From positions 6,582 to 70,581 of the forward strand of contig CAUTAF010000003.1 in assembly GCA_963536495.1 (NCBI GenBank): a stretch of 64,000 nt of DNA, written 5' to 3'. Source of the DNA: an uncultured Eubacteriales bacterium. GTDB lineage: Bacteria > Bacillota_I > Bacilli_A > RF39 > UBA660. Of the stretch, positions 59,800-62,817 are shown piece by piece (within the stretch, counting starts at the first letter, position 1; each line of letters begins with the position of its first letter). The translations under genes were made by a program, and so were the position numbers. Under the pieces are notes generated by a model. It was not told where the DNA came from. It made no database searches and worked only from the letters and a program-made list of their open reading frames with translations.

Positions 59800-62700
59800 T
59801 TAATTTTTAAAGTATACTTTTTTCTTTTTCTTAAATACTAGATAACTAATAAATATGATTAATAGTATTACTAAACTATATGTCTTTATTCCAGTATTTG
59901 GATTAGTTATTCTTTTCTCTTTATCTAATAAATCATCTATTCTTTTTATCATATTAAACATATCTTCTTTTAATATAAAATCTTTATCATATAAGTCTTT
60001 TGCTTCTTTTAATAATGTATTACATGCTTCACTCTTACATAACTTATCACTAATAGCTTTTTCTAATTCTTCTATTTTCTTTTTAAGTTCTTCTTTATCA
60101 GTTACAATCTTTTCTCTTAAATCTTTTATCTCTTTAGTAATTTTATCTACTTCTTCTTGAGTTGAAGTATTTCTATCTAAGTCTTTAGCTTCTTTTATCT
60201 TATCTATTAATTCTTTATATGAATTATCTACTTCTTTATTTATTTCTTTATCTAACTCTTCAAAGTTAGCTTTATCTCTTAGTTTATTTATTTCTTTTTT
60301 GATATCATTTATTTCTTTTTTAGTTTTTTCTATTAGTTTTAATAATTCAGTATCACTAGTAGTTGCAGAATAAGACCCTTTTATATTATCTTTTTCTGTT
60401 ACTTTACCAGGTAAATAGTTATTCTTAAGATTATCAACATCTAGTTTATTTTTAGTATCAAACGGATTTACTTTAGTATCTTCTATTAGTTTTTCTAACT
60501 GTTTAACAAGATTATCTAACTCATCTTTTTTACTCATATCAGGTAATGAATCTTTATTATATGGATCACTTCCTCTTGCTATTTCAACTGCATTAGAAAA
60601 TCCATCTCCATCTTTATCATCATCATCTTTATCTGGTATTCCGTCTTTATCAGTATCTCTTAAAAGTTTTATAGAAATATTTTTATTAAATGTATAAATA
60701 TTACCTTTTTCTTTATAAGTTATATTAAATATATGTTCTTCTTCAGTACCTGTAAACAAATAATCTATTACTCCAGTTACACTATTTGAATTATAAGTTA
60801 ATCCATTTGCTTTATTTAAATATTCATAACTTACTAAATTATCTCTTACTGTTTTTATAAAGTTAGTATTATCTACATTATCTTCTTTAGCATAACTTCT
60901 TGTTATATTTATATTAAGTGGTTTCTTCTCTATTACTTCTAATGTTTCTGGAGTTACTGTTACTGTTGGTAATATATCTTCTTTTTCATATACTTTAACT
61001 GGTATATCTATTTCTTTAAATGTATCATCACTAAATGTAATTCTTACCTTAATAGTTTTATCCCCTTTTTCAGTAAATGTATTTGATGATAATATTTCAA
61101 AGTTCTTAATATTAGCTGGTAAATTAGTTATCATTTCTTTTAATTTATTCACTGGTATTTTTTCATTTATTAAAGGTGTATAGTTTCCTTGATCAAATAC
61201 GGGATTAAAGCTATCTTCTTCTCCTGCTTCTACCGTAACAAAATAAAACCAATAAAAATAATGCCAATTATTTGATATATTATGATAAGTTCCGGTAACA
61301 TCATATCTAAAGCTTCCAGTTTCATTAAACACATAAGTTTCACCATCTCTTTTAACATTAGATTTATCATGTGATGGCCACATAACAAAACCTCTAAATT
61401 TATCTGTCAAATAAATTTCTTTGTCATTAAAATATAGTTTTGGTATTGTTACATATGAATTTTTTTTGACTGTTAGAGATATATATTCTTCCCCAATTAT
61501 ACGATTACTATTAAAATCTTCTTCAAAATAACTTGGAATTTTTATATTAGTTAAATAATTTGAATTTAATACAATAAGTTTTAAATTAGGAAATTTACTA
61601 AGATCTAATTTAGGAGTTTGCAAGGTGTTTCTACTTAAACGTAGTTCTTCTAATCTAATATTTTTTTCTATATTAATTTTTTTTATTTTTCTATCACAAA
61701 TAATAACTTTGGTTAATTTTAAATTATTAGTAAAATCCCAATTTTCAAAATTTCTTTCTCCTATCATATTTTCACTAGAAATTTCAAATATTCTTAAATT
61801 TATATTATTTTTTAAATCTATAGCATTTTCTAATTTTGTATCTATTAAATTTAAATCAGTTAAATTTATCAAATTACTAATATCTATTGATCTTATGGGA
61901 TTTTCAGATAATGATAAAGTTTGAATATTTATAGATGTACTTAAATCAATATTTGATATTTTATTTTTTGATAAAACAACTTTTTTTATTGATGCAGGTA
62001 AAGTTATATTCGATATTTTATTATCATTTAAATTTAATTCTTCTATTCCTTCATGTAACGTTATATTTTCAATATTATTTTCTTTTGCTTCTAATGTTTT
62101 CACACTAGCAGGTACAACAAGACTTGTAAGTTTATTATCATTTAAATAAACAGTTTCTACTCCTTCTGGTAATGTTATAGATGGAAGAAGGTTATCATTT
62201 AAATATAATGTTTTTACTTTAAGAGCACTTGGTATTGTTATATCAGTTATTTTATTGTTATATAACCAAATATATTCAAAAGTATTTGCTGGAAAAGTTA
62301 TATTTTTAATTTCACCTTCATACATAGATACATAAGTTAAATTATTAAAATCTGATAAATCTATATTTTCTTGAGTAACTCCTTTTATCAAAATTCTTTT
62401 TAAATTTATTAAATATTCTATACCTTGTAAATTAGCAACATTTTCTTTTGCAGATAAAGATAATAAATCCTGTATTTTATCTAAATCTACTTTAGATAAT
62501 TGTTCTTCTTCTTTTACTTTTAAATCATCTACTGTTATAGTTGGTGTGTGAGACAATAAACTACCAGCATCATATCCCTCAGTGCTATAATTATAGTAAT
62601 AACTTGTAAAAATAATACCATCACACTTATTTCTCATGATACAAAGAAGAACTCCTCTTCTTAAGTTTTCATCTGGAAATGCTTGTTTATATGTTACATT

Positions 62701-62817
62701 ATAATTTAATTCTTTTAATTTTTTATATTTTATTTTAGGTTTTTTAGTTAATACAAAAAAAGATGTTATTAACATTAATAACACTACAATAATAATTAAT
62801 AACTTTTTCTTTTTCAT
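59800..62817 (-). CDS. Leucine-rich-repeat (internalin-like) surface protein with a thrombospondin type-3 Ca-binding repeat and a C-terminal TM anchor
   Basis: Signal/anchor LLIIIVVLLMLITSFFVL. About 12 LRR units of roughly 22 aa (LxxLxLxxNxIxxI). DTDKDGIPDKDDDDKDGDGFSNAVE. A coiled-coil stalk. C-terminal YSLVILLIIFISYLVFKKKKK. Confidence 0.75.
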   Translation of the reverse strand: MKKKKLLIIIVVLLMLITSFFVLTKKPKIKYKKLKELNYNVTYKQAFPDENLRRGVLLCIMRNKCDGIIFTSYYYNYSTEGYDAGSLLSHTPTITVDDLKVKEEEQLSKVDLDKIQDLLSLSAKENVANLQGIEYLINLKRILIKGVTQENIDLSDFNNLTYVSMYEGEIKNITFPANTFEYIWLYNNKITDITIPSALKVKTLYLNDNLLPSITLPEGVETVYLNDNKLTSLVVPASVKTLEAKENNIENITLHEGIEELNLNDNKISNITLPASIKKVVLSKNKISNIDLSTSINIQTLSLSENPIRSIDISNLINLTDLNLIDTKLENAIDLKNNINLRIFEISSENMIGERNFENWDFTNNLKLTKVIICDRKIKKINIEKNIRLEELRLSRNTLQTPKLDLSKFPNLKLIVLNSNYLTNIKIPSYFEEDFNSNRIIGEEYISLTVKKNSYVTIPKLYFNDKEIYLTDKFRGFVMWPSHDKSNVKRDGETYVFNETGSFRYDVTGTYHNISNNWHYFYWFYFVTVEAGEEDSFNPVFDQGNYTPLINEKIPVNKLKEMITNLPANIKNFEILSSNTFTEKGDKTIKVRITFSDDTFKEIDIPVKVYEKEDILPTVTVTPETLEVIEKKPLNINITRSYAKEDNVDNTNFIKTVRDNLVSYEYLNKANGLTYNSNSVTGVIDYLFTGTEEEHIFNITYKEKGNIYTFNKNISIKLLRDTDKDGIPDKDDDDKDGDGFSNAVEIARGSDPYNKDSLPDMSKKDELDNLVKQLEKLIEDTKVNPFDTKNKLDVDNLKNNYLPGKVTEKDNIKGSYSATTSDTELLKLIEKTKKEINDIKKEINKLRDKANFEELDKEINKEVDNSYKELIDKIKEAKDLDRNTSTQEEVDKITKEIKDLREKIVTDKEELKKKIEELEKAISDKLCKSEACNTLLKEAKDLYDKDFILKEDMFNMIKRIDDLLDKEKRITNPNTGIKTYSLVILLIIFISYLVFKKKKKVYFKN

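What the first reader, a model, noticed from the sequence alone, without database searches (positions are those of the whole stretch)
59800..62817. Internalin-like LRR protein with a thrombospondin type-3 repeat and membrane anchor, convergent with a transglutaminase-like protein
Its architecture is a signal/anchor sequence, about 12 LRRs, a beta-rich spacer, a DxDxDGxxD calcium-binding TSP3 motif (DTDKDGIPDKDDDDKDGDGFSNAVE), a coiled-coil stalk and a C-terminal TM with a KKKK stop-transfer. That is a eukaryote-interaction style adhesin. It lacks LPXTG and is instead tail-anchored. Immediately opposite, across a short gap, lies a membrane-anchored transglutaminase-like Cys protease (58885-59790), and nearby is a NodB deacetylase with Ig-like repeats. 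Together this suggests a small surface/host-interaction neighbourhood.
Basis: partly seen in the sequence, partly recalled or inferred. Interest (0 to 1): 0.5.

Follow-up and report, generated by a model that had tools for sequence, protein, structure and literature searches.

The report
Strain-variable wall-anchored LRR adhesin gene

Summary
The ORF (59800-62817, minus strand, 1005 aa) is real.

The anchor was misread. The C-terminus is NPNTG, a hydrophobic segment and a K-rich tail. It passes the curated LPXTG-anchor model, and NP[NK]TG is present in 119 of 122 relatives. This is a class-B-like sortase signal, not a tail anchor. No sortase gene was found in the ~340 kb I could read, so that step is inferred.

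The "surface neighbourhood" is not supported. The transglutaminase-like and deacetylase genes are near-invariant core genes, separated from the LRR gene by a bidirectional terminator. Family members sit at six or more unrelated loci.

New findings:
- In conspecific strains with 97-100% identical flanks, a ~1.4-kb head cassette is only 39-77% identical, with abrupt boundaries and dN/dS 0.82.
- The promoter holds the window's only long (TA)n tract, between -35- and -10-like boxes. Its length is 17-23 nt among strains and paralogues, which suggests slipped-strand expression switching.

Verdict: a known kind of adhesin in a new, contingency-locus-like variant. Interest is moderate.

The parts
62863..62868 (-). 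distal -35-like box TTGCAT (one copy of a 7-nt duplication)
   Evidence: Read from the sequence. TRF reports ATGCAAG x2.1 at 62856-62870. The spacer to TATAAT is 20 nt.
62856..62861 (-). proximal -35-like box TTGCAT
   Evidence: The spacer to TATAAT is 13 nt.
62839..62857 (-). (TA)n tract, 19 nt, lying in the promoter spacer; candidate slipped-strand switch
   Evidence: It is the only TA run of 12 nt or more in the 64-kb window, and Markov-1 simulations give 0 runs of 16 nt or more per 64 kb. Lengths are 17, 19, 19, 19, 21 and 23 nt upstream of family genes in other strains and loci. TRF also reports it.
62837..62842 (-). -10 box, perfect TATAAT
   Evidence: Read from the sequence. Its role as a promoter element is inferred, not shown.
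62823..62827 (-). ribosome-binding site AGAGG, conserved as AATAGAGGT in the paralogues
62875..62899 (-). terminator hairpin of the upstream 638-aa gene, followed by a T-run; it isolates the LRR gene as its own transcription unit
   Evidence: RNA fold -11.1 kcal/mol, z -5.2, 0 of 200 shuffles as stable.
62746..62817 (-). N-terminal leader, residues 1-24: KKKK followed by an 18-residue hydrophobic core; signal peptide or signal anchor
   Evidence: Kyte-Doolittle windows. Pairwise identity is 82% among homologues. There is no AXA cleavage site, so cleavage is unresolved.
62473..62709 (-). internalin-type N-terminal cap, residues 37-115, including the invariant LNYNxTYKxAFPDxNL and C59/C65
   Evidence: Invariant columns in the alignment. 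Helices in the AF2 model. InlJ/InlA alignments cover 542-565 columns.
61519..62472 (-). 15 leucine-rich repeats, residues 116-433, unit length mostly 19-23 residues; the hypervariable binding head
   Evidence: Motif spacing. Pfam LRR_4. PDB hits InlJ and SspH2. pLDDT above 90. Pairwise identity 36-55% with repeat-number indels. dN/dS 0.82.
61228..61518 (-). Ig-like inter-repeat beta-sandwich fused to the LRR, residues 434-530
   Evidence: AF2 strands 439-530. The fold alignments with InlA/InlJ cap-LRR-IR constructs extend over this region.
60982..61212 (-). Rib domain, residues 536-612
   Evidence: PF08428 scores 29.7 vs 27 bits when the segment is scanned alone. pLDDT is 77-90.
60658..60981 (-). 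unassigned Ig-like beta-sandwich, residues 613-720; always followed by LLRDTDxD and repeated 2-4 times in larger relatives
   Evidence: phmmer segments. AF2 pLDDT 94.4 with 11 strands. Foldseek gives only generic Ig/cadherin matches, E above 1e-3. No Pfam family matches.
60559..60657 (-). bacterial TSP3 calcium-binding repeat, residues 721-753 (DTDKDGIPDKDDDDKDGDGFSNAVE)
   Evidence: PF18884 scores 33.6 vs 25 bits. PF02412 scores only 9.9 bits. The columns are nearly invariant.
59914..60540 (-). K/D/E-rich helical stalk, residues 760-968, with a conserved CKSEAC loop
   Evidence: AF2 helices with pLDDT 65-85. Heptad signal around residues 819-825 and 884-897 only. No specific Pfam family.
59890..59904 (-). 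NPNTG sorting pentapeptide, residues 972-976
   Evidence: N972, P973, T975 and G976 are invariant. 119 of 122 relatives carry NP[NK]TG. Homologues and paralogues at 28-48% identity keep NPKTG, NPSTS, NPRTS or NPKTS, and more distant cluster representatives have NPATG or NPITG.
59803..59889 (-). hydrophobic segment (residues 977-995) plus the KKKKKVYFKN tail; the rest of the cell-wall sorting signal
   Evidence: TIGR01167 scores 16.6 vs 15.9 bits on the 45-residue tail.
59789..59822 (.). 13-bp palindromic hairpin straddling the LRR stop codon, with U-runs on both strands; a shared bidirectional terminator of the LRR and transglutaminase-like genes
   Evidence: -13.7 kcal/mol on the minus strand (z -3.9) and -13.5 kcal/mol on the plus strand (z -4.8).
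58885..59790 (+). convergent membrane-anchored transglutaminase-core protein; a neighbour, not a functional partner on present evidence
   Evidence: PF01841 scores 27.5 vs 23 bits. It is 99.3-99.7% identical between strains. It is absent from the other family loci.

Best explanation
The gene encodes a secreted, cell-wall-anchored adhesin.

Proposed path of the protein:
- An N-terminal leader takes it through Sec.
- The C-terminal NPNTG + hydrophobic segment + K-rich tail retains it in the membrane until a sortase, most likely class-B-like, cleaves after Thr975 and links it to peptidoglycan (inferred).
- The mature protein would then project an internalin-type head (cap, 15 LRRs, Ig-like inter-repeat domain) on a conserved stalk made of Rib, an Ig-like domain, a calcium-binding TSP3 repeat and ~200 helical residues.
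- The concave LRR face binds a ligand that is not yet known.

The gene is one member of a lineage-restricted family of several paralogues per genome, found at six or more chromosomal locus types.
- The leader/cap start and the stalk/anchor are kept nearly identical among members.
- They appear to act as homology arms for recombination that replaces the ~1.4-kb head cassette. Conspecific strains therefore carry very different heads at the same locus. The replacement is shown; the mechanism is inferred.

Each gene is its own transcription unit.
- In most close family members a (TA)n tract lies between a TTG(C/A)AT -35-like box and a TATAAT -10 box.
- Gain or loss of TA units would change the spacer in 2-nt steps and so raise or lower transcription (inferred).
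- In this window the spacers are 20 or 13 nt, one TA unit away from the 18 nt seen in fixed-tract paralogues. This copy may therefore be in a low-expression state.
For: Architecture.

Sorting signal:
- TIGR01167 is passed by the tail.
- NP[NK]TG is present in 119 of 122 relatives and is retained as NPxT[GS] at 28-48% identity, where the flanking residues differ.
- Class B sortases are documented to target NPXTG/NPQTN (PMC11987632). NPxTG is used as an alternative Gram-positive anchor motif in adhesin surveys (PMC8286594).

The organism has a wall: alanine racemase, a glucosaminidase, a PgdA-like deacetylase and UppS in the window, and PBP, LCP and LtaS genes in related loci.

Multi-copy family. 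Two members lie on one 212-kb contig.

Cassette replacement:
- Pairwise identity is 0.82 for the leader, 0.36-0.55 for the head and 0.83-0.93 for the stalk.
- Window vs L013 shows flanking proteins 97-100% identical and the head 39% identical.
- DNA identity falls from 96-100% to 22-66% at +161 nt and recovers to 82-100% after about +1560 nt, mostly above 90%.
- Window vs L005: head dN 0.18, dS 0.22, dN/dS 0.82. Neighbouring genes have dN/dS 0-0.14 and dS 0-0.06.

Promoter tract:
- It is the only long TA run in the window, and it is absent from simulations.
- Runs of 16 nt or more in all loci lie only upstream of family genes.
- Lengths are 17, 19, 21 and 23 nt, including 19 vs 17 at the same locus in near-identical strains.
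- Degenerate, fixed tracts all give an 18-nt spacer.
- Precedent: the H. influenzae hifA/hifB (TA)n promoter spacer (PMC3899988).

Independent transcription unit.
Against: - No sortase gene (TLxTC motif or Pfam hit) was found in the 64-kb window or in about 275 kb of related loci.
- The more specific NPXTG model NF033846 is not reached (13.5 vs 23.5 bits).
- The N-terminal hydrophobic core is long (18 residues) and has no AXA-type cleavage site. The head could stay membrane-tethered at its N-terminus.
- Promoter elements are assigned by eye. The consensus scan is uninformative in 22% GC DNA, giving fewer hits than shuffles.
- The implied 5' leader is only about 13 nt.
- Tract lengths come from consensus assemblies of different samples, not from reads within one population.
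- dN/dS below 1 does not by itself prove positive selection.
- The ligand is unknown.
Confidence: 0.68

Rival explanations
1. One reading: a tail-anchored membrane adhesin with no sortase signal. It would form a small host-interaction island together with the convergent transglutaminase-like protease and the NodB-type deacetylase.
For: A C-terminal TM segment plus K-rich tail is present. The three genes are adjacent and all carry membrane or surface features. The adjacency recurs in three other assemblies (L004, L005, L013).
Against: - An N-terminal hydrophobic leader excludes strict tail-anchoring.
- A conserved NPxTG passes the LPXTG-anchor model.
- The neighbours are near-invariant housekeeping-type genes, while the LRR head is hypervariable.
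- The genes converge on a bidirectional terminator.
- Family members at five other locus types lack these neighbours.
- The adjacent genes also include IMPACT/YigZ, UppS and a pyrophosphatase.
Confidence: 0.05
2. The C-terminal segment is only a membrane anchor. The organism has no cognate sortase, and NPxTG is conserved for another reason, such as a helix-capping or membrane-interface motif, or a relic of an ancestral signal. The protein would be a type I membrane protein, or would be tethered at both ends.
For: No sortase was found in about 340 kb examined. NF033846 scores below its cutoff. The residues after the motif (IKTYS) are also conserved.
Against: The motif is invariant across 28-48% identical relatives whose neighbouring residues differ. 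The tail passes TIGR01167. The organism clearly makes peptidoglycan. Only a fraction of the genome could be inspected, so absence of a sortase is not shown.
Confidence: 0.12
3. The (TA)n tract has no switching function. It would be a mutational hotspot, or an AT-rich spacer or UP-like element, inherited with the family's shared promoter. Expression would be constitutive or conventionally regulated.
For: The genome is 22% GC. Some paralogues have degenerate tracts or none (L005, L002b, L015b, L011). Promoter boxes are assigned by eye. No within-population variation was measured.
Against: Long TA runs occur nowhere else in the window or in the loci, and never in simulations. The length changes in 2-nt steps between near-identical strains at the same locus. 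The tract sits exactly between the boxes. Fixed versions converge on an 18-nt spacer.
Confidence: 0.35
4. The variable LRR head is not directed at a eukaryotic host. It would bind other microbes, dietary or mucus glycans, or act as a phage-receptor decoy. Its diversity would then be driven by phage or by secretory IgA rather than by host-receptor specificity.
For: No host-specific domain was found. The same organism encodes cohesin and dockerin proteins typical of polysaccharide-surface assemblies. The hypervariability pattern fits any arms race.
Against: The closest solved relatives, InlJ and InlA, are host-directed. Fold similarity does not, however, transfer ligand specificity.
Confidence: 0.4

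Closest known systems
Listeria internalins, especially InlJ (PDB 3bz5) and InlA (1o6v)
   Same: Both have a contiguous N-terminal cap, LRR solenoid and Ig-like inter-repeat domain. Sequence similarity to InlJ is significant (E 2.5e-12) and the internalins are the top fold matches. Both have a C-terminal sortase-type anchor and belong to a multi-paralogue family.
   Different: - The LRR units are mostly 19-21 residues, against 22 in classical internalins and 21 in InlJ (from my own knowledge).
- The sorting motif is NPxTG rather than LPXTG.
- The stalk is Rib + Ig-like + TSP3 + about 200 helical residues, instead of B-repeats or MucBP.
- The organism is an uncultured 22% GC Firmicute, and no host receptor is known.
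Class B sortase substrates (B. anthracis IsdC NPKTG, S. aureus IsdC NPQTN) and NCBIfam NF033846 'NPXTG-anchored protein' of Ruminococcus
   Same: Both have an Asn-Pro-x-Thr-Gly pentapeptide followed by a hydrophobic segment and a basic tail. The tail aligns to the IsdC C-terminus.
   Different: This is not a NEAT/heme protein. NF033846 scores below its cutoff (13.5 vs 23.5 bits). No srtB gene lies adjacent in any of the loci inspected.
Fibrillar adhesins of Gram-positive bacteria (Rib/alpha-like proteins, R28, GBS beta protein)
   Same: Both have an adhesive head on a stalk of Rib/Ig-like modules with a C-terminal sortase anchor (PMC8286594). There is weak fold resemblance of residues 613-720 to the IgI3 domains 6v3p and 8cxj.
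   Different: There is a single Rib domain rather than a long tandem array. The IgI3 similarity is not significant (E about 2-6e-3, TM 0.37-0.43). The head is an LRR solenoid.
Repeat-switched contingency loci: H. influenzae hifA/hifB (TA)n promoter spacer, N. meningitidis porA poly-G, Mycoplasma hyorhinis vlp
   Same: A short repeat tract lies between the -35 and -10 boxes of a surface-protein gene and is polymorphic in whole repeat units. As with vlp, it is a multi-gene family with conserved ends and variable middles.
   Different: The host is a Gram-positive, probably gut-associated commensal. Switching has not been demonstrated. Variation of the protein is by replacement of a whole LRR head, not by in-frame repeat expansion.

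Membership tests
Internalin family (internalin domain) | Contiguous helical cap, LRR solenoid and Ig-like inter-repeat domain | tested here: met
   In the AF2 model, residues 40-530 have pLDDT mostly above 85. Foldseek ranks InlJ first (E 4.6e-13, TMt 0.66) and InlA next (E 1.8e-11), over 542-565 aligned columns.
Internalin family (internalin domain) | Significant sequence similarity to a characterised internalin | tested here: met
   phmmer against PDB gives InlJ 3bz5 at E 2.5e-12 over residues 111-416.
Internalin family (internalin domain) | 22-residue LRR unit typical of Listeria internalins | tested here: not met
   Motif spacing is 19, 19, 19, 19, 21, 21 and 23 residues. The unit length is closer to the short SspH2/IpaH-type LRR.
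Internalin family (internalin domain) | Binding to a host receptor | not testable with these tools
   This needs binding assays with the recombinant head.
Sortase-anchored surface protein (cell-wall sorting signal) | Pentapeptide, then a hydrophobic segment, then a positively charged tail at the extreme C-terminus | tested here: met
   NPNTG at 972-976, hydrophobic segment at 977-995 and KKKKKVYFKN at the end. It is conserved in 119 of 122 relatives.
Sortase-anchored surface protein (cell-wall sorting signal) | Match to the curated TIGR01167 LPXTG_anchor model | tested here: met
   16.6 bits against a cutoff of 15.9 for the window tail, and 18.3 and 19.0 bits for two diverged relatives. The match is not reported when the full-length protein is scanned.
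Sortase-anchored surface protein (cell-wall sorting signal) | A sortase encoded in the same genome | tested here: inconclusive
   No TLxTC motif or sortase Pfam hit was found in the window or in L001-L015, about 340 kb including overlaps.
Sortase-anchored surface protein (cell-wall sorting signal) | Peptidoglycan wall present in the organism | tested here: met
   Alanine racemase, glucosaminidase, PgdA-like deacetylase and UppS are in the window. PBP transpeptidase, LCP and LtaS genes are in related loci.
Sortase-anchored surface protein (cell-wall sorting signal) | Cleavable N-terminal signal peptide | tested here: inconclusive
   There is a KKKK n-region and an 18-residue hydrophobic core, but no AXA site. 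No signal-peptide predictor was available.
Class B sortase substrate / NF033846 NPXTG-anchored protein | NPxTG-type pentapeptide | tested here: met
   NPNTG in the window; NPKTG, NPSTS, NPRTS and NPKTS in relatives. The class B specificity is taken from PMC11987632.
Class B sortase substrate / NF033846 NPXTG-anchored protein | Score above the NF033846 cutoff | tested here: not met
   13.5 and 16.4 bits against a cutoff of 23.5.
Bacterial TSP3 repeat (PF18884) | Score above the Pfam gathering cutoff | tested here: met
   33.6 vs 25 bits on the isolated segment, and 21.3 bits in the full-length scan.
Eukaryotic thrombospondin type-3 repeat (PF02412) | Score above the Pfam gathering cutoff | tested here: not met
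   9.9 vs 25 bits.
Rib domain (PF08428) | Score above the Pfam gathering cutoff | tested here: met
   29.7 vs 27 bits on the isolated segment, and 23 bits in the full-length scan.
Tail-anchored membrane protein | No N-terminal signal or anchor; a single C-terminal TM segment inserted post-translationally | tested here: not met
   There is a strong N-terminal hydrophobic segment at residues 6-24 (Kyte-Doolittle up to 3.09), conserved across the family.
Repeat-mediated phase-variable promoter (hifA/hifB type) | Repeat tract located between the -35 and -10 elements | tested here: met
   The layout TTGCAT-(AT)n-TATAAT is read from the sequence. The promoter elements themselves are inferred, not mapped.
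Repeat-mediated phase-variable promoter (hifA/hifB type) | Tract length polymorphic in whole repeat units among closely related genomes | tested here: met
   19 nt in the window and L004 against 17 nt in L013 at the same locus. Lengths are 19, 19, 21 and 23 nt at other loci.
Repeat-mediated phase-variable promoter (hifA/hifB type) | Reversible ON/OFF or graded expression linked to tract length within a population | not testable with these tools
   This needs read-level metagenome or metatranscriptome data, or reporter fusions.
Co-functional gene cluster with the transglutaminase-like and deacetylase genes | Co-transcription, or conserved co-occurrence across family members | tested here: not met
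   The genes are convergent and share a bidirectional terminator. These neighbours are present at only one of six or more locus types.

The most novel reading that the evidence does not exclude
An uncultured, very AT-rich gut-type Firmicute runs a contingency-locus system for surface adhesion of the kind known from Haemophilus, Neisseria and Mycoplasma. It would consist of six or more dispersed internalin-like genes that share a leader and a wall-anchored stalk, exchange ~1.4-kb LRR head cassettes by recombination, and are individually switched by (TA)n slippage in the promoter spacer. A clonal population would then display a changing mixture of binding specificities, or evade IgA or phage. 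The paralogues would also serve as breakpoints for chromosomal rearrangement.
Probability: 0.3. Interest if true: 0.65.

Novelty: new variant of a known kind. Interest (0 to 1): 0.45.

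Why it matters
Internalin-like, sortase-anchored adhesins are well known. Almost all mechanistic knowledge of them, however, comes from pathogens. In the literature I could search, phase variation in gut commensals is discussed mainly in terms of invertible promoters.

This locus offers a concrete, sequence-defined case in an uncultured Gram-positive commensal where three things can be tested directly on existing metagenomes:
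- use of an NPxTG signal by a whole adhesin family;
- strain-level replacement of binding heads in an otherwise ~99% identical genome;
- a candidate dinucleotide-repeat promoter switch.

The finding also carries a practical lesson for annotation. Screens that look only for LPXTG will misclassify such proteins as simple membrane proteins. In addition, Rib, TSP3 and the anchor model fall below threshold or go unreported when the full-length low-complexity protein is scanned, yet pass when the segments are scanned alone.

Tried and rejected
1. Sortase hunt. I ran TLxTC-type motif scans of all six frames of the window and of 15 related loci, plus Pfam scans of 45 window ORFs in all. Nothing was found. 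One motif hit in L014 is a Cys-rich repeat protein, not a sortase.
2. Looking beyond the window edges by exact look-up of the first and last window proteins, and of P0121, failed because none is on record.
3. The GTDB scan returned a single locus, titled only 'uncultured Clostridiales bacterium', so finer taxonomy was not obtained. Cluster look-up gave no protein names.
4. The consensus promoter/terminator scanner was uninformative in this AT-rich DNA. It gave 37 promoter-like hits against 45.6 expected, and it missed the AT-rich hairpins because it requires at least 3 G-C pairs. The hairpins were then tested by folding.
5. Kinship of residues 613-720 with the streptococcal CEACAM-binding IgI3 domain was considered, because of a PDB profile hit (E 0.076) and Foldseek ranks 2 and 7. 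It was rejected as unproven: E is above 1e-3 and TM is 0.37-0.43.
6. My guess that this domain is a He_PIG/cadherin-like Pfam family was not borne out (no Pfam hit).
7. TRF found no DNA-level tandem LRR units in this allele. Repeat-number change by simple slippage within the gene is therefore not supported here.
8. A single continuous coiled coil is not supported. The stalk is predicted as several helices, with heptad signal in only two stretches.

Full report
**Observation**

The window is 22% GC, nearly all genes are on the minus strand, and GC skew is negative throughout. An ORF of 1005 codons runs from ATG at 62817 to a stop at 59800-59802 on the minus strand. It is more than a chance ORF. 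The homology search found 294 relatives, and the 120 listed are 54-100% identical, nearly all at 84-100% of the query length. Almost all come from ENA metagenome assemblies. The identical protein (P0121) is on record from a 123,672-bp contig held by NCBI and ENA.

**Anatomy of the protein**

- Residues 1-24 are KKKK followed by an 18-residue hydrophobic core.
- Residues 37-115 contain the invariant motif LNYNxTYKxAFPDxNL and two invariant cysteines. The model folds this region as a helical cap.
- Residues 116-433 form 15 LRR units of mostly 19-23 residues. Support comes from:
  - Pfam LRR_4 above its cutoff (32.9 vs 27 bits);
  - Listeria InlJ as the best solved relative by sequence (E 2.5e-12), followed by SspH2;
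  - an AF2 model with pLDDT above 90 for this region;
  - Foldseek top hits InlJ (E 4.6e-13, TMt 0.66) and InlA, aligned over 542-565 columns, that is across cap, LRR and the following beta-sandwich at 434-530.

  'Internalin-like' is therefore supported at both sequence and fold level.
- The 'beta-rich spacer' is three domains:
  - the Ig-like inter-repeat domain (434-530);
  - a Rib domain (29.7 vs 27 bits when scanned alone);
  - a further module at 613-720.
- The module at 613-720 has no Pfam match. In larger relatives it is repeated 2-4 times, each copy ending in LLRDTDxD. It folds with pLDDT 94 as an 11-strand beta-sandwich once a more diverse alignment is used. Its PDB matches are generic Ig/cadherin folds, all with E above 1e-3.
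- The acidic motif is a bacterial TSP3 repeat (PF18884, 33.6 vs 25 bits). It is not the eukaryotic TSP_3 repeat (9.9 bits).
- Residues 760-968 are K/D/E-rich and helical. They are predicted as several helices, with clear heptad periodicity in only two stretches. 'Helical stalk' is safer than 'coiled coil'.

**The anchor: the main correction**

The C-terminus reads ...RIT-NPNTG-IKTYSLVILLIIFISYLVF-KKKKKVYFKN. This is the three-part layout of a sortase sorting signal.

- The 45-residue tail passes the curated TIGR01167 LPXTG-anchor model (16.6 vs 15.9 bits). It also aligns to the C-terminus of the SrtB substrate IsdC and, below cutoff, to NF033846 'NPXTG-anchored protein'.
- N972, P973, T975 and G976 are invariant in the 22-sequence alignment.
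- 119 of 122 family members carry NP[NK]TG.
- Relatives at 28-48% identity keep the motif as NPKTG, NPSTS, NPRTS or NPKTS, although the residues on either side differ. More distant cluster representatives have NPATG or NPITG.
- Class B sortases are documented to recognise 'variations of NPXTG or NPQTN' (PMC11987632). NPxTG is treated as an alternative Gram-positive anchor motif (PMC8286594).
- The organism has a wall:
  - alanine racemase, a glucosaminidase, YfhO/GtrA/GT2, a PgdA-like deacetylase and UppS are in the window;
  - PBP, LCP and LtaS genes are in related loci.

What I could not show is the enzyme. No sortase is encoded in the window or in any of the 15 loci fetched, about 340 kb with overlaps. 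Wall anchoring is thus a strong inference, not a demonstration. 'Tail-anchored' is wrong in any case, because the protein has an N-terminal hydrophobic leader. Whether that leader is cleaved is unresolved.

**The neighbourhood**

The transglutaminase-core gene (58885-59790) and the deacetylase with two Ig-like domains (57062-58444) are as described. They do not behave as partners of the LRR gene.

- The LRR gene is bracketed by its own signals:
  - the upstream 638-aa gene ends in a hairpin plus T-run (-11.1 kcal/mol, z -5.2);
  - a 13-bp palindromic hairpin straddles the LRR stop codon, with U-runs on both strands, and acts as a bidirectional terminator for the two convergent genes.
- Between conspecific strains, the transglutaminase-like, IMPACT, deacetylase, UppS, HAD and pyrophosphatase proteins are 97-100% identical.
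- Close family members occur at five further locus types without these neighbours:
  - between a Zn-ribbon gene and gatCAB (L003);
  - in a tandem array next to yqeH and a two-component system (L002, L015);
  - next to an LCP gene (L012);
  - next to a PEMT gene (L011);
  - between tldD-like genes and ftsY (L014).

The rest of the window is ordinary core chromosome.

**A multi-copy family with exchangeable heads**

Along the protein, mean pairwise identity among 22 members is:
- 0.82 for residues 1-50;
- 0.36-0.55 for residues 51-550, with repeat-number indels;
- 0.83-0.93 for residues 551-900.

At the very same locus (transglutaminase side) in three strains, flanking proteins are 97-100% identical and the stalk is 91-93% identical. 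The head is only 39% (window vs L013), 41% (L005 vs L013) or 77% (window vs L005) identical.

At DNA level, window vs L013 is 96-100% identical from -181 to +160 nt relative to the ATG. It then drops to 22-66% until about +1560 nt and returns to 82-100%, mostly above 90%. The boundaries are abrupt, as expected for replacement of a ~1.4-kb cassette by recombination in the conserved leader/cap and stalk sequences.

Window vs L005 gives head dN 0.18, dS 0.22 and dN/dS 0.82. The six neighbouring genes give dN/dS 0-0.14 and dS 0-0.06. The head alleles are therefore both older and less constrained than their genomic background.

The family also marks structural variation:
- The array in L002 has three genes where L015 has two.
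- The same upstream block (S4, ATP_bind_3, Zn-ribbon) is joined to gatCAB in L003 but to the transglutaminase block in L005.

This window's own genome probably has further copies on both sides.
- L004, which shares the window's right end at 99% identity, encodes a 1021-aa anchorless paralogue two genes upstream of the target, beyond the window's right edge.
- The window's left 3.7 kb is 98% identical to L002/L015, where the array begins about 3 kb further on.

The complete stalk/anchor module is rare. Only about nine of 1.84 billion cluster representatives cover it end to end.

**The promoter tract, found in passing**

The 82-nt gap upstream of the ATG reads TTGCAT-C-TTGCAT-(AT)n-, with a perfect TATAAT at the end of the repeat, followed by AATAGAGGT and the ATG.

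- The 19-nt TA run (62839-62857) is the only one of 12 nt or more in the 64-kb window. Markov-1 simulations give none of 16 nt or more. TRF reports it independently.
- In all other loci, every TA run of 16 nt or more lies directly upstream of a family gene.
- Lengths are 17 (L013), 19 (window/L004, L003, L014), 21 (L002c) and 23 nt (L012). That is, they differ by whole TA units, including 19 vs 17 at the same locus in two ~99% identical strains.
- Three paralogues have interrupted, presumably frozen tracts (L005, L002b, L015b). All three have an 18-nt -35/-10 spacer. L013, L003 and L012 have 17-18 nt available. The window has 20 or 13 nt.

This is the layout of the H. influenzae hifA/hifB switch, where a TA repeat sets the -35/-10 spacing (PMC3899988). 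I infer slipped-strand modulation of transcription, with this copy possibly one unit away from the optimum. The promoter boxes are assigned by eye, the consensus scanner is useless at this GC content, and no within-population data were available.

**Comparison with known systems, and novelty**

The protein works like an internalin-type, sortase-anchored fibrillar adhesin.
- It meets the structural definition of the internalin domain, but not the 22-residue repeat length.
- It meets the generic sorting-signal model, but not the specific NF033846 model.
- Its stalk composition (Rib, Ig-like, TSP3, helical region) is unusual.

The family-level behaviour resembles contingency loci of mucosal pathogens: conserved ends, swapped heads, dispersed copies and repeat tracts in promoters. 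The keyword searches I could run show phase variation in gut commensals discussed mainly in terms of invertons. That is not proof that the mechanism proposed here is new.

I rate it a new variant of a known kind. The protein class is ordinary. The cassette exchange is well supported. The promoter switch is a testable hypothesis.

Noticed in passing
window 62837-62868 (minus strand), just outside the finding's coordinates: A 19-nt (TA)n tract lies between duplicated TTGCAT boxes and a perfect TATAAT in the LRR gene's promoter. It is the only long TA run in the window, and its length is polymorphic (17-23 nt) upstream of family genes elsewhere. It is a candidate slipped-strand expression switch.
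   Followed up: yes
window 62900-64000 (minus strand, runs off the window); L004 3916-5832 and L004 785-3850: The ORF listed as 267 aa is really the 3' part of a 638-aa helical-repeat protein with no Pfam family and no signal peptide. Two genes upstream, outside the window, L004 encodes a second internalin-like paralogue (1021 aa). It has the same cap motif, LRRs, Rib repeats and a TSP3-like acidic motif, but it ends without a stalk or sorting signal.
   Followed up: partly
window 1-3738 compared with L002 and L015 (327-4066); arrays at L002 7076-17306 and L015 7073-13426: The window's left end is 98% identical to contigs in which a tandem array of LRR/NPxTG genes begins about 3 kb further on. 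The array has three genes in L002 and two in L015, so copy number varies. The 878-aa member carries NPSTS instead of NPxTG.
   Followed up: partly
L003 vs L005 vs window/L004 (upstream side of the LRR gene): The same upstream block (ribosomal S4, ATP_bind_3, Zn-ribbon) is joined through an LRR gene to gatCAB in L003 but to the transglutaminase block in L005. The window has a different upstream block. The LRR paralogues sit at rearrangement breakpoints, which is consistent with recombination between copies.
   Followed up: partly
L002 3969-5501, L015 3969-5498, L012 4659-6746, L012 1386-2771: The same organism group encodes a cohesin + cadherin-like protein, a dockerin protein next to two prepilin-type (N_methyl) genes, and a Mac-1/IdeS-family cysteine protease. 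This hints at cellulosome-like surface assemblies and possibly at immunoglobulin cleavage.
   Followed up: no
window 26533-35950: This is the lowest-GC block of the window (17-21%). It holds wall and glycopolymer genes (GtrA, GT2, alanine racemase, an 824-aa YfhO, PIG-L deacetylase, PrsW protease), plus three ORFs (226, 257 and 164 aa) with no Pfam match.
   Followed up: partly
window 22377-23558 (minus strand): A 393-aa protein has two Big_2 Ig-like domains and a hyaluronate-lyase N-terminal beta domain. It is another probable surface protein and is unrelated to the LRR family.
   Followed up: no
window 18442-20436 and 2365-3468 (minus strand): Two sizeable ORFs (664 aa and 367 aa) have no Pfam family at E of 0.01 or better. 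The 367-aa gene is conserved in L002 and L015.
   Followed up: no
window 46698-46877, 48195-49470 and 3553-3634: There is a T-box leader upstream of the 1050-aa ORF at 43572-46724. A cluster of six minus-strand tRNA genes lies at 48969-49470, plus one plus-strand tRNA gene (48195-48268) and one isolated tRNA gene (3553-3634).
   Followed up: no
window 58447-58471: A 10-bp G+C-containing hairpin lies between the deacetylase gene and the IMPACT/YigZ gene. It was the only site that the consensus terminator scanner detected in 58400-63200, and it is a bidirectional terminator for that convergent pair.
   Followed up: no
whole protein, methodological: Rib, TSP3_bac and the LPXTG-anchor model fall below cutoff or go unreported when the full-length K/N/I-rich protein is scanned, but pass when the segments are scanned alone (vs 32, 38). 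AF2 gave pLDDT of about 30-35 for residues 613-720 with the shallow family alignment, but 94 with a more diverse one.
   Followed up: yes
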